From Hydrurus foetidus (lineage: Eukaryota): a DNA stretch of 64,000 nucleotides. Every line of letters begins with the position of its first letter. Positions within the stretch are counted from its first letter, which is position 1. The position numbers were made by a program, and so were the translations under genes. The notes below the pieces were generated by a model. That model was not told where the DNA came from. It did no database searches and saw only the letters and a list, made by a program, of their open reading frames with translations. Shown in pieces: positions 1,437-28,740 of the stretch. The stretch covers positions 1 to 64,000 of the forward strand of contig UYFQ01000740.1 of NCBI GenBank assembly GCA_900617105.1, written 5' to 3'.

Positions 1437-1457
1437 ATTCATCATCTATTCTTTCCG

Positions 1458-4400
1458 ATGATCCAGAACTTATTCCTTTCTTCTCCCCTCTCACAGGAGG
1501 TTATGCTGGAAAAAAGTAATAGAGTCTTTACTCTCCTGGACACCGGCTCTTTTGCTGGCAACTTTATACATCGCCGCATTATAACTAATCATAATTTCAC
1601 ACAATTCGTTTCTAACTCTTCAAAGAAATTGTGTAAAGTTTGTAGTGGATTAGATAATCATTGTTATGATATTTCTGACACTATAGACTTAACTCTTTCT
1701 TATTTTTGCCCTGATTTAAATAATTATTATACTTTTCAAATCACGGCTTATGTTTTAAACGAATCGAAATTTGATCTAATAGTGGGACGAAAAACAATTC
1801 GCGAATTGAATTTGTTTTCACGATTCCCCGATCAAATATCTGCCAATGCTTCATCAAGCACTATCCCATTAGCGGAAGTTTTATCTTCTGAGCAAGTGGA
1901 TATAACGTGTGGCTGTCAGCCTAAGGAGAAGTTGCAACCCTCCGACGGCTCCCCAAAAGTCGATCCTTTAACCCAAAAGGTGAAACCGGCAGTCACTCAA
2001 ACACACGTTATTCTAGCTTCACTAATACAAGAGTCTGAAAGACTTTTTGAGGCTGTGCCCCCTGATGAGGATGAAATCGACGACTCGATCAAGGACTCGT
2101 TTTCACCTTGGATAGATGAATTTCCTGATACTGACCCACTCTCGCTAATAAACTTAGCAGGTGATGAAGATCAGAAAAATAAACTTCGGTTACTAGTACA
2201 CGAATTCAAGGATATATTTAGCAGTGAACTTTCGGCCACTCCTGCTGATATTCCACCGTTTGACTTTCATGTCAATGACGACCAATGGAGAGTCCCTAAA
2301 ATAGACAACCTCCATGGTCTAAATCAACAGTTGATCAAGCTGACATTCTTAGTCAAATTACAAAACTTGAAAAACATAATATTGTTGAAAAATCGAACGC
2401 GGCTTATTATAGCCAAGTTTTACTAGTTCCTAAATCTGATGGAACTAAGCGCATGTGTATTGATTTTCGGAATCTCAACAATTGTACCGAAGATAAATCA
2501 CATCCTATTCCACACATCGGTGAGATGTTGCGTAGAATAGGTGCACATAAAGCAAAAGTGTTTGCTGTACTTGACCTCACTCAAGGTTACCATCAAGCAC
2601 CACTTACACTTGCTGCACGTGCTTATACTGCATTCATACTTTTCTGCGGAGTATATCAATTCACTCGTTTACCCTTTGGGCCAAAACAAGCTCCCTCCTA
2701 TTTCCAACAGATCATGACGACTGTTGTGTTAGCAGGGCTGATATACTCTATATGCGAAATGTACATCGATGATTGCAATGTTTTCGGTAAAGACATTGAT
2801 GAACTTATTTCTAGACTTCGTCTTGTTTTGAACGCTTTAGAAAACACAAAATATTCCTTAAACCGAATAAGTGTTATCTAGGCTATGCCGAAATAGACTA
2901 TGTTGGCAAAGTTCTATCTGCAGATGGACTTAGAATGTCACAAGAAAAATACGGACTGTCTTAGATTTTCCTAAACCAGTACTATCTAAACAACTCAAAA
3001 GTTTTTAGGATTGGTTAATTATTTTCACGACTTTGTTAGAAACGCTTCTACTGTTGTATACCCGTTACATCAGTTGCTTCTTAACTATAATAAGTATAAG
3101 AAAATAACTTGGACAATAGAAGCTCTCAGAGCATTCAATTTGATCAAATCCGAGATTTCAAAATGCACGACTATGCACTTTTTAAGTGACACCGATCCGA
3201 TTTACTTGCACACTGATGCATCGGACTATGGTGTAGGTGCCTATCTTTTCCAGTTAGTTGACGGTCAAGAAACGCCCATAGCATTTGTCAGTAAATCACT
3301 CAACAAAGCTCAGCTTCGTTGGGCTGTTATACAAAAAGAAGCATATGCTATCTTTTATTCGTGCACGTATTTAAAATCGCTATTACGTGATCGTACGTTT
3401 ACATTACGAACAGATCATCGTAACTTGTTATACATAAAGGATAATTCAAATCCAATGATTGTTCGGTGGTTTATGGCCTTATCCGAATATTCATTTAAGA
3501 TTGAATATATACCTGGACCTAACAATGATATAGCTGATTCGATGTCTCGACTCTGTCGCAATAACATGGTTGATTTCCCTCAGGAATATACTCCTGATGC
3601 AATCATGTCTGCTAATATTATTGAGAAATTTAAACTAACACGTGAGCAGTACAATACAATCAGTAAAGTACACAACTCACAAGTTGGGCATTTTGGCCTT
3701 GAGCGCACTTTAAAGCGTCTCAAAGATAAAAATGAAATTTGGCAATATATGCGACAGCATGTCAGGTGGTTCATAGATCACTGTTCGTGTTGTCAGAAGA
3801 TGAGTATGTTAAAGATACCAATACATGCTCATGGCTTCTCGACTTCTACTTACACACCTATGGAATGCCTTAACATAGACTTCATAGGACCGTTTCCAGA
3901 CGGCGGGTACGTACTCGTAATTATCGATACGTTCACAAGATGGGTTGAACTGTTTCATACAGAAGATGCTACGGCACTTTCAACAGCTAAATGCCTCTTG
4001 CAACATTTCGGTCGTTTCGGCGCACCTCTCCAACTCCGTTCTGATAATGGGCCACACTTCATTTCCGAAGTTATCAAAGAGTTTCTAACTCTTATCGGCA
4101 CTCAACATTGTCTTACTTTAGCATATTCTAAAGAAGAAAATGCTATTGTTGAGCGCATGAATAAAGAAGTTAATAGACATCTTCGTGCATTAACATTCGA
4201 TAATGTCACACTAGAAGATTATAAGACGTCACTTCCTTTTGTGCAACGAATTTTAAATTCTAACCACAGTGATCGTTTAAAGATATCAGCTTCTCAACTT
4301 CTTTTCGGAAATGTACTGAAACTCGATAGAGGTATCTTTTTACCTCCTGCTGAGCGAAATGTTACTGATGACAAACCTTTGTCAAAACGCATGAGCAATC

Positions 4401-4930
4401 TACTCAAAACGCAAGATAGCCTTCTTAAAGCTTCGGCTAAAGAACTTCTTCGCACAGATTTGCTTCATCAAAGTCAGTCTCAAATTTTTCAGCATGTAGA
4501 GTATCCAAAAGACTCTTATGTCTTGGTGCACTATCGCGATGGATCACCTCCTTCACGTCTTCACACGCATTGGAGAGGTCCATTAAAAGTCGTTAGTGGC
4601 GAAAATTCGCGTTACACTTTATATGATCTAGTCACTCAGAAAACATCAGAATTTCATGTATCTGCCATGAAACCTTTTCTATTTGACCCAGTGATCACAA
4701 ATCCGTTAGATGTTGCACGACGTGATCACATGGAATACTTTGTTGAAGACATTCTTGAACATCGTGGTAAACATCAACGTACCCATATAGAGTTTTTAGT
4801 CAAATGGTTAAATAACCCTTCTGACAAAAACACTTGGGAACCTTACTCAAGCCTTCGTGACGTTGTTAAACTTCATGATTATTTGCGTCATAATAACACG
4901 ACAAAATTAATCAATAAACAACACGGTTGA
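1458..4930 (+). pseudogene. pol: pol polyprotein (PR-RT-RH-IN-chromodomain) broken by several frameshifts
   Basis: ORFs 1458-2426 (DTG protease), 2453-2881 (RT) and 3011-4930 (RH, IN, chromo). Confidence 0.9.
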
Positions 4931-7823: not shown

Positions 7824-7885
7824 GGTTCCGAGTTCCGAGTTCCGAGTTCCGAGTTCCGAGTTCCGAGTTCCGAGTTCCGAGTTCC
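7824..7885 (+). repeat. heptamer tandem repeat (GTTCCGA)n, about 8-9 units
   Basis: Read directly. A shorter reverse-complement version lies at ~15173-15201, upstream of the second AK gene. Confidence 0.9.
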
Positions 7886-8067
7886 AGTTTGAAATAATGA
7901 AATAATGCAGCAACGTATCCTACACAGCTGATTCAACATGGGTCAACTGTGCACATCATCAACAATTCCATGTAGCCCAAAACCAAACCTCTAAGCGTCT
8001 TCTCTCCCTCCAGCCCACTGGTTGATGAAAACAACTGGCAAACAACGAGCACACAATCTACGTCATA

Positions 8068-9613
8068 ATGATGAATTTCTATTCGCGTTGGCCACTTCTG
8101 TGCATCATCCTGGCATCAACGATCATTGTTACCACCAATGGTCACTTTACAACAAGATTTTCTCATGGGGTCGTTAAATCGAACCCATCTGTGAACACGC
8201 TTTCCTTTAGAGGTGTTGCACAGCAACGGAGGAAAAGAACTCTCGAAATGGTCAACAAAAATCAACCTTCGACAACACCAAAAATCATCATTGCGGGAGC
8301 ACCGGCAGCTGGGAAGGGAACCCAGTGTGAAATGATAAAAGCCAAGTACGGTCTAGTACACCTGTCGACCGGAGATATACTGAGAGAGGCTGTCAAGCAA
8401 GGAACACCATTGGGAGTAAAAGCAAAGGCATTCATGGAAGGTGGGCAGCTTGTCCCCGACGACTTGATAACGGGACTGATATGTGATCGCTTGAAAGAGA
8501 GCGACTGTCAGACCAACGGGTGGTTGTTGGATGGCTTTCCTCGCACGAGATCACAGGCAGAGGCTCTGTCAAGTGCTGGTATGGTGCCTGACTGCTTCTT
8601 GATGTTGGATGTTCCCGAGGATATTTTGGTGGAGAGAGTAACTGGAAGAAGGACTGATCCTGCTACTGGCAAGATCTATCACATGAAGTTCAATCCTCCA
8701 GAGAATGACGAAGTCGCATCACGACTGGTGCAACGCAGTGACGATACAGCTGAGAAGATAATAGTGCGTTACAAGGAATTTCAAAGTCACATCGAAGCAG
8801 TTAAATCTTGCTATGAGGATAAGATGGTTCGTGTGGACGGCAGTACATCACAGGATGCAGTGCGCAAGTGCGTCAGTGACGCTATAATTCGAAGTATGCT
8901 ACAATCGACAGAAGTTAAAAAGAACACAAACTTAAGAATCATTATTGCGGGAGCTCCAGCAGCTGGGAAGGGAACCCAGTGTGAAATGATAAAAGCCAAG
9001 TACGGTCTAGTGCACCTGTCGACCGGAGATATACTGAGAGAGGCTGTCAAGCAAGGAACACCATTGGGAGTAAAAGCAAAGGCATTCATGGAAGGTGGGC
9101 AGCTTGTCCCCGACGACTTGATAACGGGACTGATATGTGATCGCTTGAAAGAGAGCGACTGTCAGACCAACGGGTGGTTGTTGGATGGCTTTCCTCGCAC
9201 GAGATCACAGGCAGAGGCTCTGTCAAGTGCTGGTATGGTGCCTGACTGCTTCTTGATGTTGGATGTTCCCGAGGATATTTTGGTGGAGAGAGTAACTGGA
9301 AGAAGGACTGATCCTGCTACTGGCAAGATCTATCACATGAAGTTCAATCCTCCAGAGAATGACGAAGTCGCATCACGACTGGTGCAACGCAGTGACGATA
9401 CAGCTGAGAAGATAATAGTGCGTTACAAGGAATTTCAAGGTCACATCGAAGCAGTTAAATCTTGCTACGAGGATAAGATGGTTCGTGTGGACGGCAGTAC
9501 ATCACAGGATGCAGTGCGCAAGTGCGTCAGCGATGCTCTTGATAAAGCGGCCGAGAGCAGACGATCATTACTGGAAGATACTTCTGGAACAGTCAAAGAA
9601 GTGAAAAAGATAG
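8068..9613 (+). CDS. ADK: plastid-targeted tandem double adenylate kinase (exon 1; probably spliced to the LrgB exon; the unspliced ORF ends at 9624)
   Basis: Signal peptide and transit-like leader, then two AK domains with GAPAAGKGTQ, HLSTGDILR, WLLDGFPR and the chloroplast-type GRRTDPATGKIYH..QRSDD. Confidence 0.93.
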
Positions 9614-9700
9614 GTATCCCATGAAATTTTTGCAAATTAGACTTTTTGATGTTGATTTAAGTATAACAGCTAACTTTCCTTAACTTTGTACTAATCTCAG

Positions 9701-11028
9701 GACTTCTCGACATTCAAGGAGGATCAACAAGTCAATTGTCAACATCTCAAAAGTCCATGGGTCAAGCGGCATTTGGAACACTATTTCTAATTGTGATGGA
9801 CAAAGCTATAGCTAAACTATTCAAGGCGAAGAACTGGTCATTTCCCTCCGCTCTCGGTGCCATGGTGGGAGTCTTTCTGACACTGTGCACATTCCGAGTG
9901 TTTAATGAAGATCTAGCGGAAGGCATTTCTGATGGTCTCTCTCCTGCAGTCTCGTTGATAAAGGCCTGGTTGCCCTTGTTCTTCGTACCTCCTCTTGTCG
10001 TGCTTCCCTTGAAGATGCATCTTTTGAAAGGTGTTGGTGTCCAGCTCTCACTAGTGGTCGCGATTGGGTCTGTTCTGTCTCTCACTTCCGCGGGATTATT
10101 CGCACAACTGGTAGACAATTTGTTCCCTGTCACCAAGGTGGAGGGTGCTGCACCTGCTTCACCGGTGGTTTCCGCTCCCCTTCCATCTCTGCCTCCACTA
10201 TCCATTCCTGCAGCAGCAACCGCATTGTTCTTGGCAGGCAGCAAACTACTCCCCCTAATTGCCCCTTCAGCATCTCCGATGGTACGCGGTCTCGTGCAGG
10301 GTGCCTTCGGGGCAGCGGCTACTGTAACGGGCTATATTACAGGCACCAAGCTACCTGCGAAAGTGAAGAAAATCGCACATCCCGTTTTGATCTGTGCTGC
10401 ACTCACCACCGCATTGCTGGTAGTATTTGGGTCACTCAACGGAATCGCAACTGCAGCAGTGCTGTCACAGTACTTCGGGTCAGGGTCAATGCGAGGATCA
10501 GGGGACATCATATCGTCTATGCTGGGACCGGCAATCATCAGTTTTGGAATCCAGCTCTACCAATACAGAGCAATGCTAAGGGAGAACATTTTCAGAGTCA
10601 TGAGCACAACAGCATTTTCAGCCTCTTTTGGTCTCACCAGTTCAGCTTTACTAGTCAAGGCCTTCAAGTTAGCACCCAAGCAGACTGCCTTCGCTCCTCT
10701 AACAAGATGCATAACAACCCCTCTAGCCTTGGCCGGTGCCCGTCTGACCGGCGCCGACCCCTCACTGTCGGCATTCGTCGTGGTGGTGACAGGTATTCTC
10801 GGTGCTAGTCTTGGAGAGTCATTGTTGGAGGCCGTTGGAGTTAAGGAACCTGTCTCAGTCGGCTTGGCTGTTGGTGCTGGTGCCCATGGCCTGGGCGCGG
10901 CTGCCGTGGCTAACGATCCTATCAAGTTCGCGTCAGCGGTAGTATCAATGACGTTGACAGGTCTCTGGACTGTCGCCCTCATGTCGTATACTCCACTCAG
11001 GCAGTGGCTTGTGAAGTTGTGTCTGTAG
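9701..11028 (+). CDS. PLGG1: LrgA/LrgB family multi-TM transporter, PLGG1-like plastid glycolate/glycerate transporter (exon 2 of the AK fusion)
   Basis: LrgA-like FPSALGAM..WLPLFFVPPLVVLPL; LrgB-like LGPAIISFG, RCITTPLAL, VVTGILGA, GLAVGAGAHGLG; no presequence of its own. Confidence 0.85.
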
Positions 11029-11185
11029 TCTAGTAAGTGAGACTATCAATATCTGTTGGCCTACAGCCTGTACATAATTAGAACTCCGTTACTCCCTACA
11101 GAATGTTCCCTACTTTTGATTGTAAGAATTATTCTGCATCATCACATCGCAACGTGATAGGGGCAGATCCGGTAAATTCGGTCGT

Positions 11186-11700: not shown

Positions 11701-12045
<345 letters not shown>

Positions 12046-12237
12046 TTATGACAACGATTCCAATCCTTGAAAAACAACTCTCGACTCTTGGGTGACCGGT
12101 GACCTTCTTTGTTCACTCAGCATGATGGTGCTCCACACGAGAAAAAGGAAAACGCTTTCATACATAAAAACTGAAAATGTGAAGTGACATCTGATCTGCT
12201 GAACAGAGCGTGACTAAATTCTTCACAGTCTATCTGA

Positions 12238-12687
<450 letters not shown>

Positions 12688-13266: not shown

Positions 13267-14894
13267 TCACACACCTATATTCGTTATAGAGAAAGGTAAT
13301 TAGTGCGTTTAAGTCGGATTAGTACGAGTGTCCCTCATTGAAAAAATGATCACGTACCTATTTTAGACAGTTCCTTAACTGAATCTGACAGCGATGATCG
13401 TCTGCTCTCGGCCGCTTTATCAAGAGCATCGCTGACGCACTTAGATACAGCATCCTGTGATGTACTGCCGTCCACACGAACCATCTTATCCTCGTAGCAA
13501 GATTTAACTGCGTCGATGTGACCTTGAAATTCCTTGTAACGCACTATTATCTTCTCAGCTGTATCGTCACTGCGTTGCACCAGTCGTGATGCGACCTCGT
13601 CATTCTCTGGAGGATTGAACTTCATGTGATAGATCTTGCCAGTAGCAGGATCAGTCCTTCTTCCAGTTACTCTCTCCACCAAAATATCCTCGGGAACATC
13701 CAACATCAAGAAGCAGTCAGGCACCATACCAGCACTTGACAGAGCCTCTGCCTGTGATCTCGTGCGAGGAAAGCCATCCAACAACCACCCGTTGGTCTGA
13801 CAGTCGCTCTCTTTCAAGCGATCACATATCAGTCCCGTTATCAAGTCGTCGGGGACAAGCTGCCCACCTTCCATGAATGCCTTTGCTTTTACTCCCAATG
13901 GTGTTCCTTGCTTGACAGCCTCTCTCAGTATATCTCCGGTCGACAGGTGCACTAGACCGTACTTGGCTTTTATCATTTCACACTGGGTTCCCTTCCCAGC
14001 TGCCGGTGCTCCCGCGATAATGATTCTTAAGTTTGTGTTCTTTTTAACTTCTGTCGATTGTAGCATACTTCGAATTATAGCGTCACTGACGCACTTAGAT
14101 ACAGCATCCTGTGATGTACTGCCGTCCACACGAACCATCTTATCCTCATAGCAAGATTTAACTGCTTCGATGTGACCTTGAAATTCCTTGTAACGCACTA
14201 TTATCTTCTCAGCTGTATCGTCACTGCGTTGCACCAGTCGTGATGCGACTTCGTCATTCTCTGGAGGATTGAACTTCATGTGATAGATCTTGCCAGTAGC
14301 AGGATCAGTCCTTCTTCCAGTTACTCTCTCCACCAAAATATCCTCGGGAACATCCAACATCAAGAAGCAGTCAGGCACCATACCAGCACTTGACAGAGCC
14401 TCTGCCTGTGATCTCGTGCGAGGAAAGCCATCCAACAACCACCCGTTGGTCTGACAGTCGCTCTCTTTCAAGCGATCACATATCAGTCCCGTTATCAAGT
14501 CGTCGGGGACAAGCTGCCCACCTTCCATGAATGCCTTTGCTTTTACTCCCAATGGTGTTCCTTGCTTGACAGCCTCTCTCAGTATATCTCCGGTCGACAG
14601 GTGCACTAGACAGTACTTGGCTTTTATCATTTCACACTGGGTTCCCTTCCCAGCTGCCGGTGCTCCCGCAATGATGATTTTTGGTGCTGACATTGGCTGA
14701 CTTTTGCTTATCATCTCTATTGACCCCTTTCGTCGCGGTTCTGCTTCACCTCTAAAGGAAAGCGTGTTCACAGATGGGTTAGATTTAACGACCCCATGAG
14801 AAAATCTTGTTGTAAAGTGACCATTGGTGGTAACAATGATCGTTGATGCTAGGATGATGCACAGTAGTGGCCAAAGCGAATAGAAATTCATCAT
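13267..14894 (-). CDS. ADK: second plastid-targeted tandem double adenylate kinase, stand-alone (unspliced ORF ends at 13350; a probable intron 13357-13275 gives the C-terminus KIGV*)
   Basis: Near-identical to 8068-9613 in both AK domains, with the same ATAG|GTA donor at the end. Confidence 0.92.
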
Positions 14895-15423
14895 TATGAC
14901 GTAGATTGTGTGCTCGTTGTTTGCCAGTTGTTTTCATCAACCAGTGGGCTGGACGAAGTGAAGATGTCGCGTAGTTAGGGCAAGGTTTGCTGCTACAGTT
15001 GATCTAAAGGTACTCTGATGTTATCGACGCTGACTGGCAGTATATTGAATCACGATCAACGCAGCGTTGCTGGTGCTGGTTGCTGTTCGCTGACTACCGA
15101 TCGGAACTACATCGCAGTATAATCGGAGTGGAGCAAAGGGGGGCCTAGCTAGAACTTTCCTAGACACAAGCGCTCGGAACTTTGAACTCGGAACTCGGAA
15201 CCTGCAGAATGTGTAACCGTAGATAAAGGACAAAGCTCCATGCTCCATTCTGCGTGCTTGCATGGTTGTGAATTGTGAAGCCCTGCAGCCCTGCTGACTC
15301 TCAGCAGCTTGAGCTGTTCACTCTGTGTTAATTGAATCATTCCTCTCATAGTGCCTGTAGGCGTCGATGAAATGAGTTTCTGCTACGCATCATTGGACAG
15401 TTAAGGAAAACTTTTATTTCAGG

Positions 15424-26460: not shown

Positions 26461-28740
26461 TCAACTGAACTTAGCGTCCATTCGATAGGAGGAAATCCTT
26501 TTCAGTACAACGGGTTGTAGAGCACCAGCAGCAGCTGTGTGCGATTTTGTGCTATCCGCTTGACTGCTCCCACTAGTACTGGCTGGAGACCGAGAGATAT
26601 CAGCCATAGGGGCATGAGACTTTCCTAACATCACCAAGGCGTGCGAGACGATTTTCTTCATGCTCGATTCAAGCTGACCTTCCATGAAAGTTCCTTGATA
26701 CTTCAGGAGCGAAGCCACTATATCCGAGACTGTCATTGCCTCCACAAAAGGTAATCCCAGTCCCAACTCATCTATTCTAGCGATGAGCCGCGCCTCTACA
26801 CTGCACACAGATACGTCTGGTAGTGTCCGTGGGTGGGACGCATTCTTGCCCGAGAAGGAGTACTTGGAGTAAATGTCGGTACCATGATCTTTGGGCCCAA
26901 TAAAAAGAGGGAAGATCTTGTCCAATAGTCCTCTTTCTCTCAACTCCAGTGCAAGGACAAACTCAAGCAGAAGGTGGTCGCATTGAGAAGAGCTGTCGAG
27001 AGAAGTGAAGCTGCCTATTGCCTCTCTAGATATCACCGGGAGAAAGGCTTTGCTCTTCATTAGACCGACACAAAACCCGACATCCCAGGGCTCCCCCGGT
27101 TTGAGACATTCCTTGTCCCACCACACCCTCAGCCCTGCACTTCGTAACATGTTGTACAGCATCTCAGCATGTACACTGTCACTGGCTACGCGGTAGGATA
27201 AGAAAACATCATACTCTGCTTCATCATTTATCATGCGGCATATTTTCTTTCCTGTTATGAAGGGGTGTACGAGTACGTGGCGTATACTCGGTCGTTTCCT
27301 TGGTTCTTTTGAGAGCAGTAGAGATATTAAATTGCGCGCAGCAGTGTTTTTCACTCTGGACAGTTTTTCGACTTTCAGACTGTCTGACCATTCAGCCAGT
27401 AGCCTTAAGTCGCTCTCCTCAATATTGCCGTCACCGTCACATAGGAACAAAGGAGCGTTAGCTGCGATGTTATAGATGACCACGCCAAGAGACCAGAGAT
27501 CGTGAGTCTCTGAGGCAGGAACAAGCTCGAAGTCGAAGTCACAGCTCTGATTGTCCCGTCTGTGATTAGCACCGTGCACCCTGTGATTCGGCATATTTGC
27601 CTTTGAACGTACGCACACCACAGAGTCCGTACAGTATATCAACTCTGGGCATACGTAGCCCGAACTGAACTTCATGGCGGAGTATTCAGTACCGGAAATG
27701 AATGAGACTGATGCATCCAAATCGATCAATTTCATTTGCTGCCCTACTCTCATGATATTGAGCGCTGATGTAGTGAAGAGAAGGAAGGAGGAAGGAAGAG
27801 GGCAACGAAGAAGGTTAGGGGAGGAAAGGGGAGCGAAAAGAAGAGGAAAAGCGTCAAGAGGGAGAGGAAGAGCTGTGATGCAGCAAAATGAAGTGGCGAG
27901 AAAAATTTGGTAGGTATATCCAATAAGAATGAGGTGAGCCAGCTGAGGGCCATTGAGGGAATGCAACAGGCACAGTGAGATGTATGGCTAAAAACTGGCA
28001 GAGTAAAAAATTTACAAAATTACGGAAGGAACAATATCGGGTAAGTTGCATGAGGACAAGGGTATGTTATGGTGGAATGCAAGAGTAGAGATGATTCAGC
28101 GACATGACATGATGTGGAAATATTGATGGAATGTGAGAGGCACTCACGTTTGAGGTCTCCGTGAATGAATCCATTGAAATGCATGTGTCCCACAGCTGAT
28201 GCGATCTGGCATGTTATCATGCGAATCTGATCCCAGTCCCTGCCCGCTAAATGCTCTTTCACCATGACGTCACCGAGGTTTCTCTCGCCGACATGCATCA
28301 CAAAGCAATACGGGAAATCAACAAACCCCTTCGCAACAGCTTCATCTCTGAAGTCTGGATCTTCATCACAGTCATGCACTCTAATGCCTCCCATAACGTG
28401 CACCTCGCTGAAGTTACCCAGCGCTCTCACACGCACTTCTCGTAGGAATTGAGCACGCTCTTTCATGAATTTCATCGCCACCATTTTATCGTCATCCTCG
28501 CTTTCGTGGTCAACGGCAAGATGCACTATGCTTGTTTCGGTCTGCAAGAGATTAATTTTTCAAAAAAAATTGGCTTCGCGTTAATAAAGGGCGATTGAAT
28601 GCATTGCGATGTATTGTGTCTAGTGCAGTAAGTATGTATTAGCAATGTGCGAAGTCATACTCCTAAGGTCAAAAAGAAGATGACAAAGAAGAATGCCACT
28701 GCAACGTGTCTGCGTGTGTACATGAATAGTGTTATGTAAT

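What the first reader, a model, noticed from the sequence alone, without database searches (positions are those of the whole stretch)
8068..11028. Hidden fusion: plastid double adenylate kinase spliced in frame to an LrgA/LrgB (PLGG1-like) transporter
Seen: the ORF track shows two genes, but an 87-nt intron (GTATCC at 9614 to CTAATCTCAG at 9700, with CTAAC/CTAAT branch-like motifs) joins AK exon 1 (phase 1) in frame to the LrgB ORF, reading ...KKI-G-LLDIQGGSTSQLSTSQK.... The product would be a ~957-aa presequence-AK-AK-LrgA-LrgB protein. The LrgB ORF has no targeting peptide and only ~110 nt upstream for a promoter. Known: plant PLGG1 (LrgAB) exports photorespiratory glycolate, and plastid AK equilibrates ATP/ADP/AMP. 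Inference: an envelope carrier with tethered adenylate-sensing enzymes could link photorespiratory flux to stromal energy charge. I do not know of this architecture being characterised.
Basis: partly seen in the sequence, partly recalled or inferred. Interest (0 to 1): 0.85.

Follow-up and report, generated by a model that had tools for sequence, protein, structure and literature searches.

The report
Adenylate kinase fused to PLGG1-type carrier
An algal gene, likely from a golden alga, is spliced into one reading frame that joins two adenylate kinases to a membrane carrier related to the plant chloroplast glycolate transporter; the same fusion recurs across golden algae and in Chromera, likely anchors an energy-balancing enzyme at the plastid envelope, and was not found described in the papers searched.

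Summary
Confirmed. An 87-nt GT..AG intron (9614-9700) is spliced out in poly(A) RNA reads (12 junction reads, no reads inside the intron). The spliced gene gives a 957-aa presequence-AK-AK-LrgA-LrgB frame. The fusion is not peculiar to this genome: AK-LrgAB proteins occur in Epipyxis, Dinobryon, Mallomonas, Hydrurales and many unnamed records. It also occurs outside that LrgAB clade, in Chromera velia and two unnamed lineages. None of 58 hits around a haptophyte-like query (haptophyte, diatom, red algal and unnamed) carries AK. Both AK domains keep all catalytic motifs, are 98.5% identical, and are homogenised within species. The carrier model has the NhaA/CPA fold. The linker is variable and low-confidence, and AK was lost in some relatives. 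Most likely this is a plastid-envelope monocarboxylate (glycolate/glycerate) carrier carrying active stromal AKs on a flexible tether. Location, substrate and any adenylate control of transport are untested. One origin for all fusions is neither shown nor rejected (AU p=0.23). Five targeted paper searches found no description.

The parts
8068..9613 (+). Exon 1 (coding, 1546 nt, ends in phase 1): presequence + AK1 + linker + AK2 + start of tether
   Evidence: RNA coverage
8068..8250 (+). Predicted bipartite presequence (aa 1-61): hydrophobic signal core aa 11-21, basic Ser/Thr-rich transit-like part ending T-L-E-M; residue after the likely signal cleavage is H (F follows), not the canonical F/W/Y/L
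   Evidence: crude script, no SignalP; criteria
8281..8883 (+). Adenylate kinase domain 1 (plastid type)
   Evidence: PF00406; best PDB match 1ZAK E 8.9e-73; motifs intact
8935..9537 (+). Adenylate kinase domain 2, 98.5% identical in DNA to domain 1
   Evidence: TIGR01351 218 bits against cut-off 168
9614..9700 (+). 87-nt GT..AG intron, phase 1; if retained it would stop the frame at 9622-9624 and give AK-AK alone, but no intron reads were seen
9701..11028 (+). Exon 2 (coding): rest of tether + LrgA-like + LrgB membrane carrier, stop TAG 11026-11028
9832..10101 (+). LrgA-like segment (PF03788, E 2.4e-5, 24.6 bits, under the cut-off of 28)
10321..10986 (+). LrgB domain (PF04172, E 1e-37, 130 bits)
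11029..11170 (+). Likely 3' UTR (spliced contigs end at 11162 and 11170; contig ends do not fix the RNA end)
13267..14894 (-). Inverted paralogue: presequence-AK-AK with an 83-nt intron (13357-13275) at the same place and phase, then only G-V-stop; an expressed AK-AK without carrier (96% identical over 7998-9597)
   Evidence: joint in 39 X14 reads and in X12, X13 contigs

Best explanation
The gene is spliced into one 957-aa frame, presequence-AK-AK-LrgA-LrgB, whose product is likely a plastid-envelope carrier for small monocarboxylates (likely glycolate/glycerate) that would hold two likely active adenylate kinases on a flexible tether at the stromal face. Shown: splicing, frame, domain order, intact AK motifs, and conservation of the fusion across chrysophytes and in Chromera. 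Inferred: the presequence takes the protein through the ER and plastid membranes; the AKs are imported first and the LrgAB part stays in the inner envelope; LrgAB works by facilitated diffusion like PLGG1 and PftAB; the AKs equilibrate ATP + AMP with 2 ADP next to the carrier. On this reading the two activities are made, targeted and placed together in fixed proportion. The link is local adenylate buffering where photorespiratory carbon crosses the membrane (returning glycerate is phosphorylated with ATP in plant plastids; my own knowledge), not necessarily a direct gate.
For: Splicing. Fused homologues as single proteins: 7 of 7 hits among longer proteins and 16 of 49 near-length hits; named ones are Epipyxis, two Dinobryon, Mallomonas and Hydrurales. 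L001 encodes AK and LrgAB in one intronless frame at the junction. N-termini: 20 of 21 proteins have a hydrophobic core, 17 of 21 a small residue followed by F/W/Y/L after it, and all 21 more K+R than D+E. The AK is closest to maize 1ZAK, and its P-loop, STGDxLR, DGFPR and RxDD motifs are present in every complete domain printed. The carrier model (pTM 0.81) matches NhaA/CPA-fold transporters, Z 13.6, rmsd 5.1, 306 aligned; 23 such rows lead the list. This agrees with PMC8562792 (passages). Characterised LrgAB proteins carry monocarboxylates: PLGG1 in the inner envelope (PMC4368765 passages) and PftAB for pyruvate (PMC5626966 passages). Tether: 19-53 aa and unalignable in 17 of 19 rows parsed (2 parse failures); pLDDT under 50 at residues 304-317 between two confident domains in the P0031 model.
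Against: No localisation, transport or kinase assay exists. The window's own signal cleavage is followed by H, not F/W/Y/L, and by the ASAFind rule such a protein is not called plastid. The Phaeodactylum PLGG1 homologues were not predicted plastid (PMC9546453 passage and supplement rows). The chrysophyte LrgAB is a long-branch clade only about 36% identical to a haptophyte protein labelled as a glycolate/glycerate translocator, so the substrate may differ. No named plant PLGG1 was in my trees. Membrane topology was not tested. Long retention and recurrence of the fusion in different LrgAB clades argue for tighter coupling than mere anchoring.
Confidence: 0.5

Rival explanations
1. The AK domains are a built-in adenylate sensor. 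Their open-closed cycle or nucleotide state gates the carrier, so glycolate/glycerate flux follows the stromal energy charge, as SbtB does for the NhaA-fold carrier SbtA.
For: The fusion is kept across deep chrysophyte lineages and also occurs in other LrgAB clades. The carrier shares its fold with SbtA (Z 11.0), KefC (Z 11.8), SLC9C1 and SOS1 (Z 13.6). SbtA is controlled by adenylate charge through SbtB (abstract of 10.1101/2021.02.14.431189). Nucleotide-binding regulatory domains on KefC, SLC9C1 and SOS1 are recalled, not from a call.
Against: The linker varies in length and sequence. AK number is one or two. AK is absent from close relatives that keep the presequence: P0049, sister of P0046, and Vitrella P0141 beside Chromera. 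The catalytic motifs are intact rather than degenerate.
Confidence: 0.25
2. The fusion is a polyprotein of convenience. Two plastid proteins share one promoter and one presequence, and the AK part may be cut off after import, with no functional link.
For: Secondary losses of AK. This genome has made a separate, expressed AK-AK copy with more junction reads in X14 (39 against 10). The tether is low-complexity.
Against: Neutral fusions are not expected to persist over LrgAB divergence down to 41-50% identity, or to appear in three LrgAB clades. No conserved cleavage-like motif is visible in the linkers.
Confidence: 0.15
3. The protein sits in another membrane (periplastid membrane, chloroplast ER or endomembrane) or carries another substrate such as pyruvate or lactate, with the AKs serving the periplastid compartment.
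For: Non-canonical +1 residue in the window's presequence. Non-plastid predictions for diatom homologues. Divergent LrgAB clade. Bacterial LrgAB proteins carry pyruvate.
Against: 17 of 21 homologues have the small-then-aromatic/Leu step after the signal core, and 8 of 21 show the L/I-x-M transit-end motif described for diatom stromal proteins. The AK is of the plastid type.
Confidence: 0.1

Closest known systems
PLGG1 / AtLrgB (At1g32080), plant plastid glycolate/glycerate translocator
   Same: LrgA and LrgB fused in one chain behind a targeting peptide. By eye, the same motif series runs along the part of the Arabidopsis sequence shown in a supplement (FPSAL, WLPLF, HP..C, GD....LG, no alignment run).
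   Different: PLGG1 has no AK. The chrysophyte LrgAB forms its own long-branch clade, and orthology with plant PLGG1 was not tested. The presequence is bipartite-like. The substrate is unknown.
Plastid adenylate kinase (maize, PDB 1ZAK; ADK family PF00406 / TIGR01351)
   Same: Best solved relative (E 8.9e-73); same lid type and catalytic motifs.
   Different: Here it is doubled, homogenised within species and tethered to a membrane carrier. The plant long form is fused to DUF1995 instead (Atlas cluster row).
Bacterial LrgAB / CidAB / PftAB
   Same: Same two membrane domains. PftAB is a facilitated pyruvate carrier (PMC5626966, passages).
   Different: Two separate genes without AK; scores are far under the NCBIfam equivalog cut-offs.
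SbtA-SbtB of cyanobacteria (analogy only)
   Same: NhaA/CPA-fold carrier (Z 11.0 to the model) paired with an adenylate-binding partner.
   Different: SbtB is a separate PII-like trimer (trimer recalled), not an AK, and the substrate is bicarbonate. No sequence homology was tested.
Chromera velia Cvel_26764 (UniRef100_A0A0G4HF20, labelled only 'Adenylate kinase')
   Same: Same order AK-AK-LrgA-LrgB, 921 aa.
   Different: Its LrgAB falls in another clade (with Vitrella). Its two AKs are only 60% identical, and the gene model has almost no presequence. It is uncharacterised as far as the searches show.

Membership tests
LrgAB / PLGG1 carriers | LrgB domain | tested here: met
   PF04172 130 bits, cut-off 25
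LrgAB / PLGG1 carriers | LrgA domain N-terminal to LrgB in one chain | tested here: inconclusive
   PF03788 E 2.4e-5, 24.6 bits, just under the cut-off of 28 in the window; over the cut-off in homologues P0002 (30.4) and P0136 (35.9)
LrgAB / PLGG1 carriers | About 12 membrane helices | tested here: inconclusive
   All-helical confident model with 22 helices listed; a crude hydropathy scan gave only 7 segments over threshold
PLGG1 proper | Orthology with plant PLGG1 | tested here: inconclusive
   No row named as a plant protein in the trees; the chrysophyte clade stands apart from diatom, haptophyte and red algal rows on a weakly resolved backbone
PLGG1 proper | Plastid inner-envelope location | not testable with these tools
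   Presequence features only
PLGG1 proper | Glycolate/glycerate transport | not testable with these tools
   No assay; no solved LrgAB relative by sequence
Adenylate kinase (plastid type) | Family profile over cut-off | tested here: met
   TIGR01351 218 bits against 168; PF00406 two stretches
Adenylate kinase (plastid type) | P-loop Lys, AMP-binding and catalytic Arg/Asp motifs, lid | tested here: met
   GAPAAGKGT, STGDILR, DGFPR, GRRTDP, RSDD in both domains
Adenylate kinase (plastid type) | Kinase activity | not testable with these tools
   No assay
Ochrophyte stromal bipartite presequence | Signal peptide followed by F/W/Y/L | tested here: inconclusive
   Hydrophobic core present; the window has G-H-F, 17 of 21 proteins have the canonical step; no SignalP available
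Ochrophyte stromal bipartite presequence | Basic, Ser/Thr-rich transit part ending L-x-M | tested here: met
   K+R 8, D+E 1, S+T 27%, LEM; motif from PMC3774753 passages
NhaA/CPA-fold secondary carriers | Fold match over most of the domain | tested here: met
   Top 23 rows are CPA/AT-type carriers, best Z 13.6, rmsd 5.1, 306 aligned; first unrelated row Z 7.8. Z is near the caution level for helical proteins, and Foldseek gave no match at E<=0.001

The most novel reading that the evidence does not exclude
The AK-LrgAB fusion arose once in an ochrophyte plastid lineage as an adenylate-gated photorespiratory carrier and passed with the plastid into chromerids. It would then be both the first enzyme-gated PLGG1-type transporter and a rare shared character supporting an ochrophyte (Limnista-related) origin of the Chromera/apicomplexan plastid.
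Probability: 0.15. Interest if true: 0.88.

Novelty: new variant of a known kind. Interest (0 to 1): 0.68.

Why it matters
How algae with four-membrane plastids export glycolate, and whether PLGG1-type carriers are regulated, is open. A natural carrier with tethered adenylate kinases, and natural relatives that have lost them (P0049 against P0046; Vitrella against Chromera), make adenylate control of photorespiratory transport directly testable. The distribution (chrysophytes, Chromera, two unnamed lineages; not in the haptophyte, diatom and red algal hits) gives a new character for the debated ochrophyte origin of alveolate plastids (PMC4603697, abstract), or else a case of repeated convergent fusion. 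Either result points to selection for the pairing. Gene callers that ignore introns split the gene, and assemblers collapse the twin AKs, which would explain why it has been overlooked.

Tried and rejected
1) Two separate genes, or intron retention as a main form: rejected; 12 junction reads and no reads inside the intron, though depth there is low (about 2-10). 2) Double AK as an assembly artefact: rejected; the copies differ at 9 sites, the linker is covered in RNA (X12 contig 8847-9530; 27 X14 reads at 8943, which cannot tell this gene from the paralogue), and DNA contig depth over the AK is about 4 times that of exon 2 (460-481 against 117-120), as four copies would give; the tool warns that depth is a poor copy number. 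3) complex prediction of exon-2 LrgAB with AK2: no answer, score 0.00 in two runs, alignments not used; no evidence either way. 4) No solved LrgAB relative by sequence or by Foldseek at E<=0.001. 5) The ESM Atlas gave no cluster holding both families for P0140 or P0212; this shows neither absence nor novelty. 6) The metagenome locus scan gave only 4 loci from 100 candidate stretches; only L001 reached the AK, so intron conservation in close relatives was not seen in DNA. 7) AU test of one clade for all AK-fused LrgAB plus Vitrella: not rejected (p 0.233, 11 log units worse), not shown. 8) No stand-alone plastid AKs from other algae could be fetched, so the AK tree has no outgroup and says nothing on origin. 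9) Earlier findings: none bear on this. 10) No whole genome is held. 12) The supplements of PMC5462543, which list chimeric ochrophyte plastid proteins, could not be read, and the paper on symbiogenetic fusion genes that it cites is not held; either may already list this fusion.

Full report
Observation. The window shows two ORFs, 8068-9624 (518 aa) and 9757-11028 (423 aa). Between them lies an AT-rich 87-nt stretch, 9614-9700, that begins GTATCC and ends CTAATCTCAG. Removing it joins a phase-1 exon to the downstream frame and gives 957 aa without a stop. Public runs confirm the splice. Oligo-dT raw reads X14 and X15 (one sample, about 6 in 100 of each read) show the 87-nt GT..AG joint in 10 and 2 reads, with zero depth in the bins 9614-9671. 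Contigs of X12 and X13 also hold the joint, while X10 and X11 hold the unspliced intron. X10-X13 are one study with no library on record and may include the window's source. X14/X15 are a second study and differ from the window at a few sites. The metatranscriptome X1 holds exon 2 in a contig starting at 9699 but shows no joint.

Anatomy. Exon 1 encodes a presequence, two adenylate kinase domains and the start of a linker; exon 2 encodes the rest of the linker, an LrgA-like segment and LrgB. AK2 passes the TIGR01351 cut-off, and both AKs keep the catalytic motifs. The best solved relative is maize AK 1ZAK. AK1 and AK2 differ at 9 of 604 nt, 7 of them in synonymous codons. An inverted paralogue at 14894-13267, beyond a histone H4/H3 pair (named from the recognisable translations), is 96% identical up to 16 nt before the donor. 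It has an 83-nt intron at the same place and phase, is spliced in 39 X14 reads, and ends G-V-stop, so it encodes AK-AK without the carrier. Since the fusion is ancestral in the clade (below), this copy is best read as a partial duplication that freed the kinases (inference).

Distribution in chrysophytes. Searching with exon 2 among longer proteins gave 7 hits, and all 7 carry AK. Among near-length proteins 16 of 49 carry AK. Source labels name Epipyxis, Dinobryon (two), Mallomonas and Hydrurales sp. CCMP1899, the last being the closest named relative at 63%. The window is therefore likely a chrysophyte. The 18 top near-length hits (P0013-P0030) have no AK but start about at the junction, several with the same L-G/A-G then LL..GG entry. 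I read them as exon-2-only gene calls, but I did not see their DNA. L001 shows the fusion without an intron at the junction. Truly unfused forms exist: P0044, P0048, P0049 and P0052 join a presequence straight to LrgAB, and P0049 is the sister of the fused P0046, a secondary loss. Single-AK forms may partly be assembly collapse: P0012 is P0003 minus one AK (716 of 720 residues identical), and P0036 and P0062 are one cluster with one and two AKs.

Distribution beyond. A search from the distant P0061 gave 58 hits (named ones haptophyte, diatom and red algal), none with AK; it covered 258-823 aa only, so double-AK forms could not appear. The profile search over 1.84 billion representatives listed the best 150 of 302 at E<=1e-30, and 8 carry AK. 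Five are in the chrysophyte-type clade. Three are not: Chromera velia Cvel_26764 (AK-AK-LrgAB, 921 aa), an unnamed EukProt transcript P0263 that groups with Chromera and with the unfused Vitrella protein (100/97), and the unnamed P0140 cluster, with P0145 holding an AK tail by eye. The lineage of P0140 was not determined; an eustigmatophyte is my guess, not a result. In the careful 37-row tree (a hand-picked subset of the 187-row tree) the chrysophyte-type LrgAB is a 100/100 clade on a long branch, and the backbone is unresolved. Forcing all fused forms plus Vitrella together is not rejected (AU p 0.233). One origin and convergence both stay open. Bigelowiella P0056 nests in the chrysophyte-type clade as a partial model.

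Twin kinases. In the AK tree 6 of 9 double-AK proteins have their two domains as sisters (5 starred). Two near-identical Dinobryon-type proteins pair by position, one is unresolved, and there is no deep AK1-versus-AK2 split. This indicates concerted evolution or repeated tandem duplication; the tree cannot tell which.

Structure and targeting. The AlphaFold model of exon 2 (pLDDT 84.5, pTM 0.81) matches NhaA/CPA-fold carriers (SLC9C1, SOS1, NhaP, AspT, KefC, SbtA, CitS, ASBT, PIN; best Z 13.6, rmsd 5.1, 306 aligned), above the first unrelated row at Z 7.8. Foldseek found nothing at E<=0.001. This fits the reported distant kinship of LrgA/LrgB to that superfamily (PMC8562792, passages) and favours a carrier over a holin pore. 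The model of the single-AK homologue P0031 has two confident units and a linker with pLDDT under 50 (pTM 0.63), and linkers are 19-53 aa and unalignable in 17 of 19 parsed rows. N-termini look bipartite in 20 of 21 proteins by a crude script. The window's own lacks the canonical +1 aromatic residue but has a basic, Ser/Thr-rich part ending L-E-M (criteria from passages of PMC3774753 and PMC4329603). Against this, the diatom PLGG1 homologues were predicted non-plastid (PMC9546453, passages and two supplement rows).

Mechanism. Most likely (0.5) the protein is a plastid-envelope monocarboxylate carrier, like PLGG1 (PMC4368765, passages) and PftAB (PMC5626966, passages), with active AKs tethered on the stromal side that buffer adenylates where photorespiratory carbon crosses. 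Direct gating by adenylate state (0.25) has an analogy in SbtA-SbtB (10.1101/2021.02.14.431189, abstract). A polyprotein without functional link (0.15) and another membrane or substrate (0.1) remain. Only the gene, its splicing, its domains and its distribution are shown.

Novelty. Five searches aimed at the fusion returned no title or abstract opening that describes it. The one paper holding LrgB, adenylate kinase and fusion mentions the kinase only in a reference. Passage searches in PMC9546453, PMC7580956, PMC11528492 and PMC5462543 found no mention in the main texts. The supplements of PMC5462543 could not be read and subscription journals are missing, so a table entry may exist. The Chromera record is labelled only 'Adenylate kinase'. 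The shared presence in chrysophytes and Chromera touches the hypothesis of an ochrophyte origin of alveolate plastids (PMC4603697, abstract). Verdict: a real, conserved, apparently undescribed domain architecture built from two known families; a new variant of a known kind; interest 0.68.

Noticed in passing
window 13267-14894 (-): Expressed AK-AK paralogue without the carrier; same intron position. The end of its transit-like part (8215-8280 equivalent) is only 59% identical to the fusion gene while the flanks are 97-100% identical, which suggests patchy gene conversion.
   Followed up: yes
window 11701-12687: Divergent histone H4 (-) and H3 (+) pair lying between the two inverted AK genes.
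   Followed up: no
window 9539-9692: DNA contigs of X10 and X11 show extra depth here (about 187-189 against 117-120), and X10 has a side contig in which 9692 continues into paralogue-type AK tail sequence. There may be a further partial copy or allele of the gene end.
   Followed up: no
window 8611-8794 and 9262-9343 (loose ends): X14/X15 reads reveal another, more divergent and well-expressed plastid-type AK gene in the same sample that is not in the window.
   Followed up: no
P0089, P0092: Haptophyte-clade LrgAB proteins carry an N-terminal ABM (antibiotic biosynthesis monooxygenase, PF03992) domain, a second kind of soluble add-on to this carrier.
   Followed up: partly
P0056: Bigelowiella natans LrgAB nests inside the chrysophyte-type clade, a possible gene transfer from an ochrophyte; the gene model is partial, so AK status is unknown.
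   Followed up: partly
window 1437-4930 (+): Chromodomain-bearing LTR retrotransposon remnant (RT, RNase H, integrase, chromo) split over several frames.
   Followed up: no
window 26461-28559 (-): Protein kinase domain followed by a TIR_2 domain (PF13676, E 4.6e-10) in an algal gene.
   Followed up: no
window 7828-7885: Short tandem array of a 7-nt unit (TTCCGAG) about 180 nt upstream of the start codon; a shorter run of the same unit lies upstream of the paralogue near 15200.
   Followed up: no
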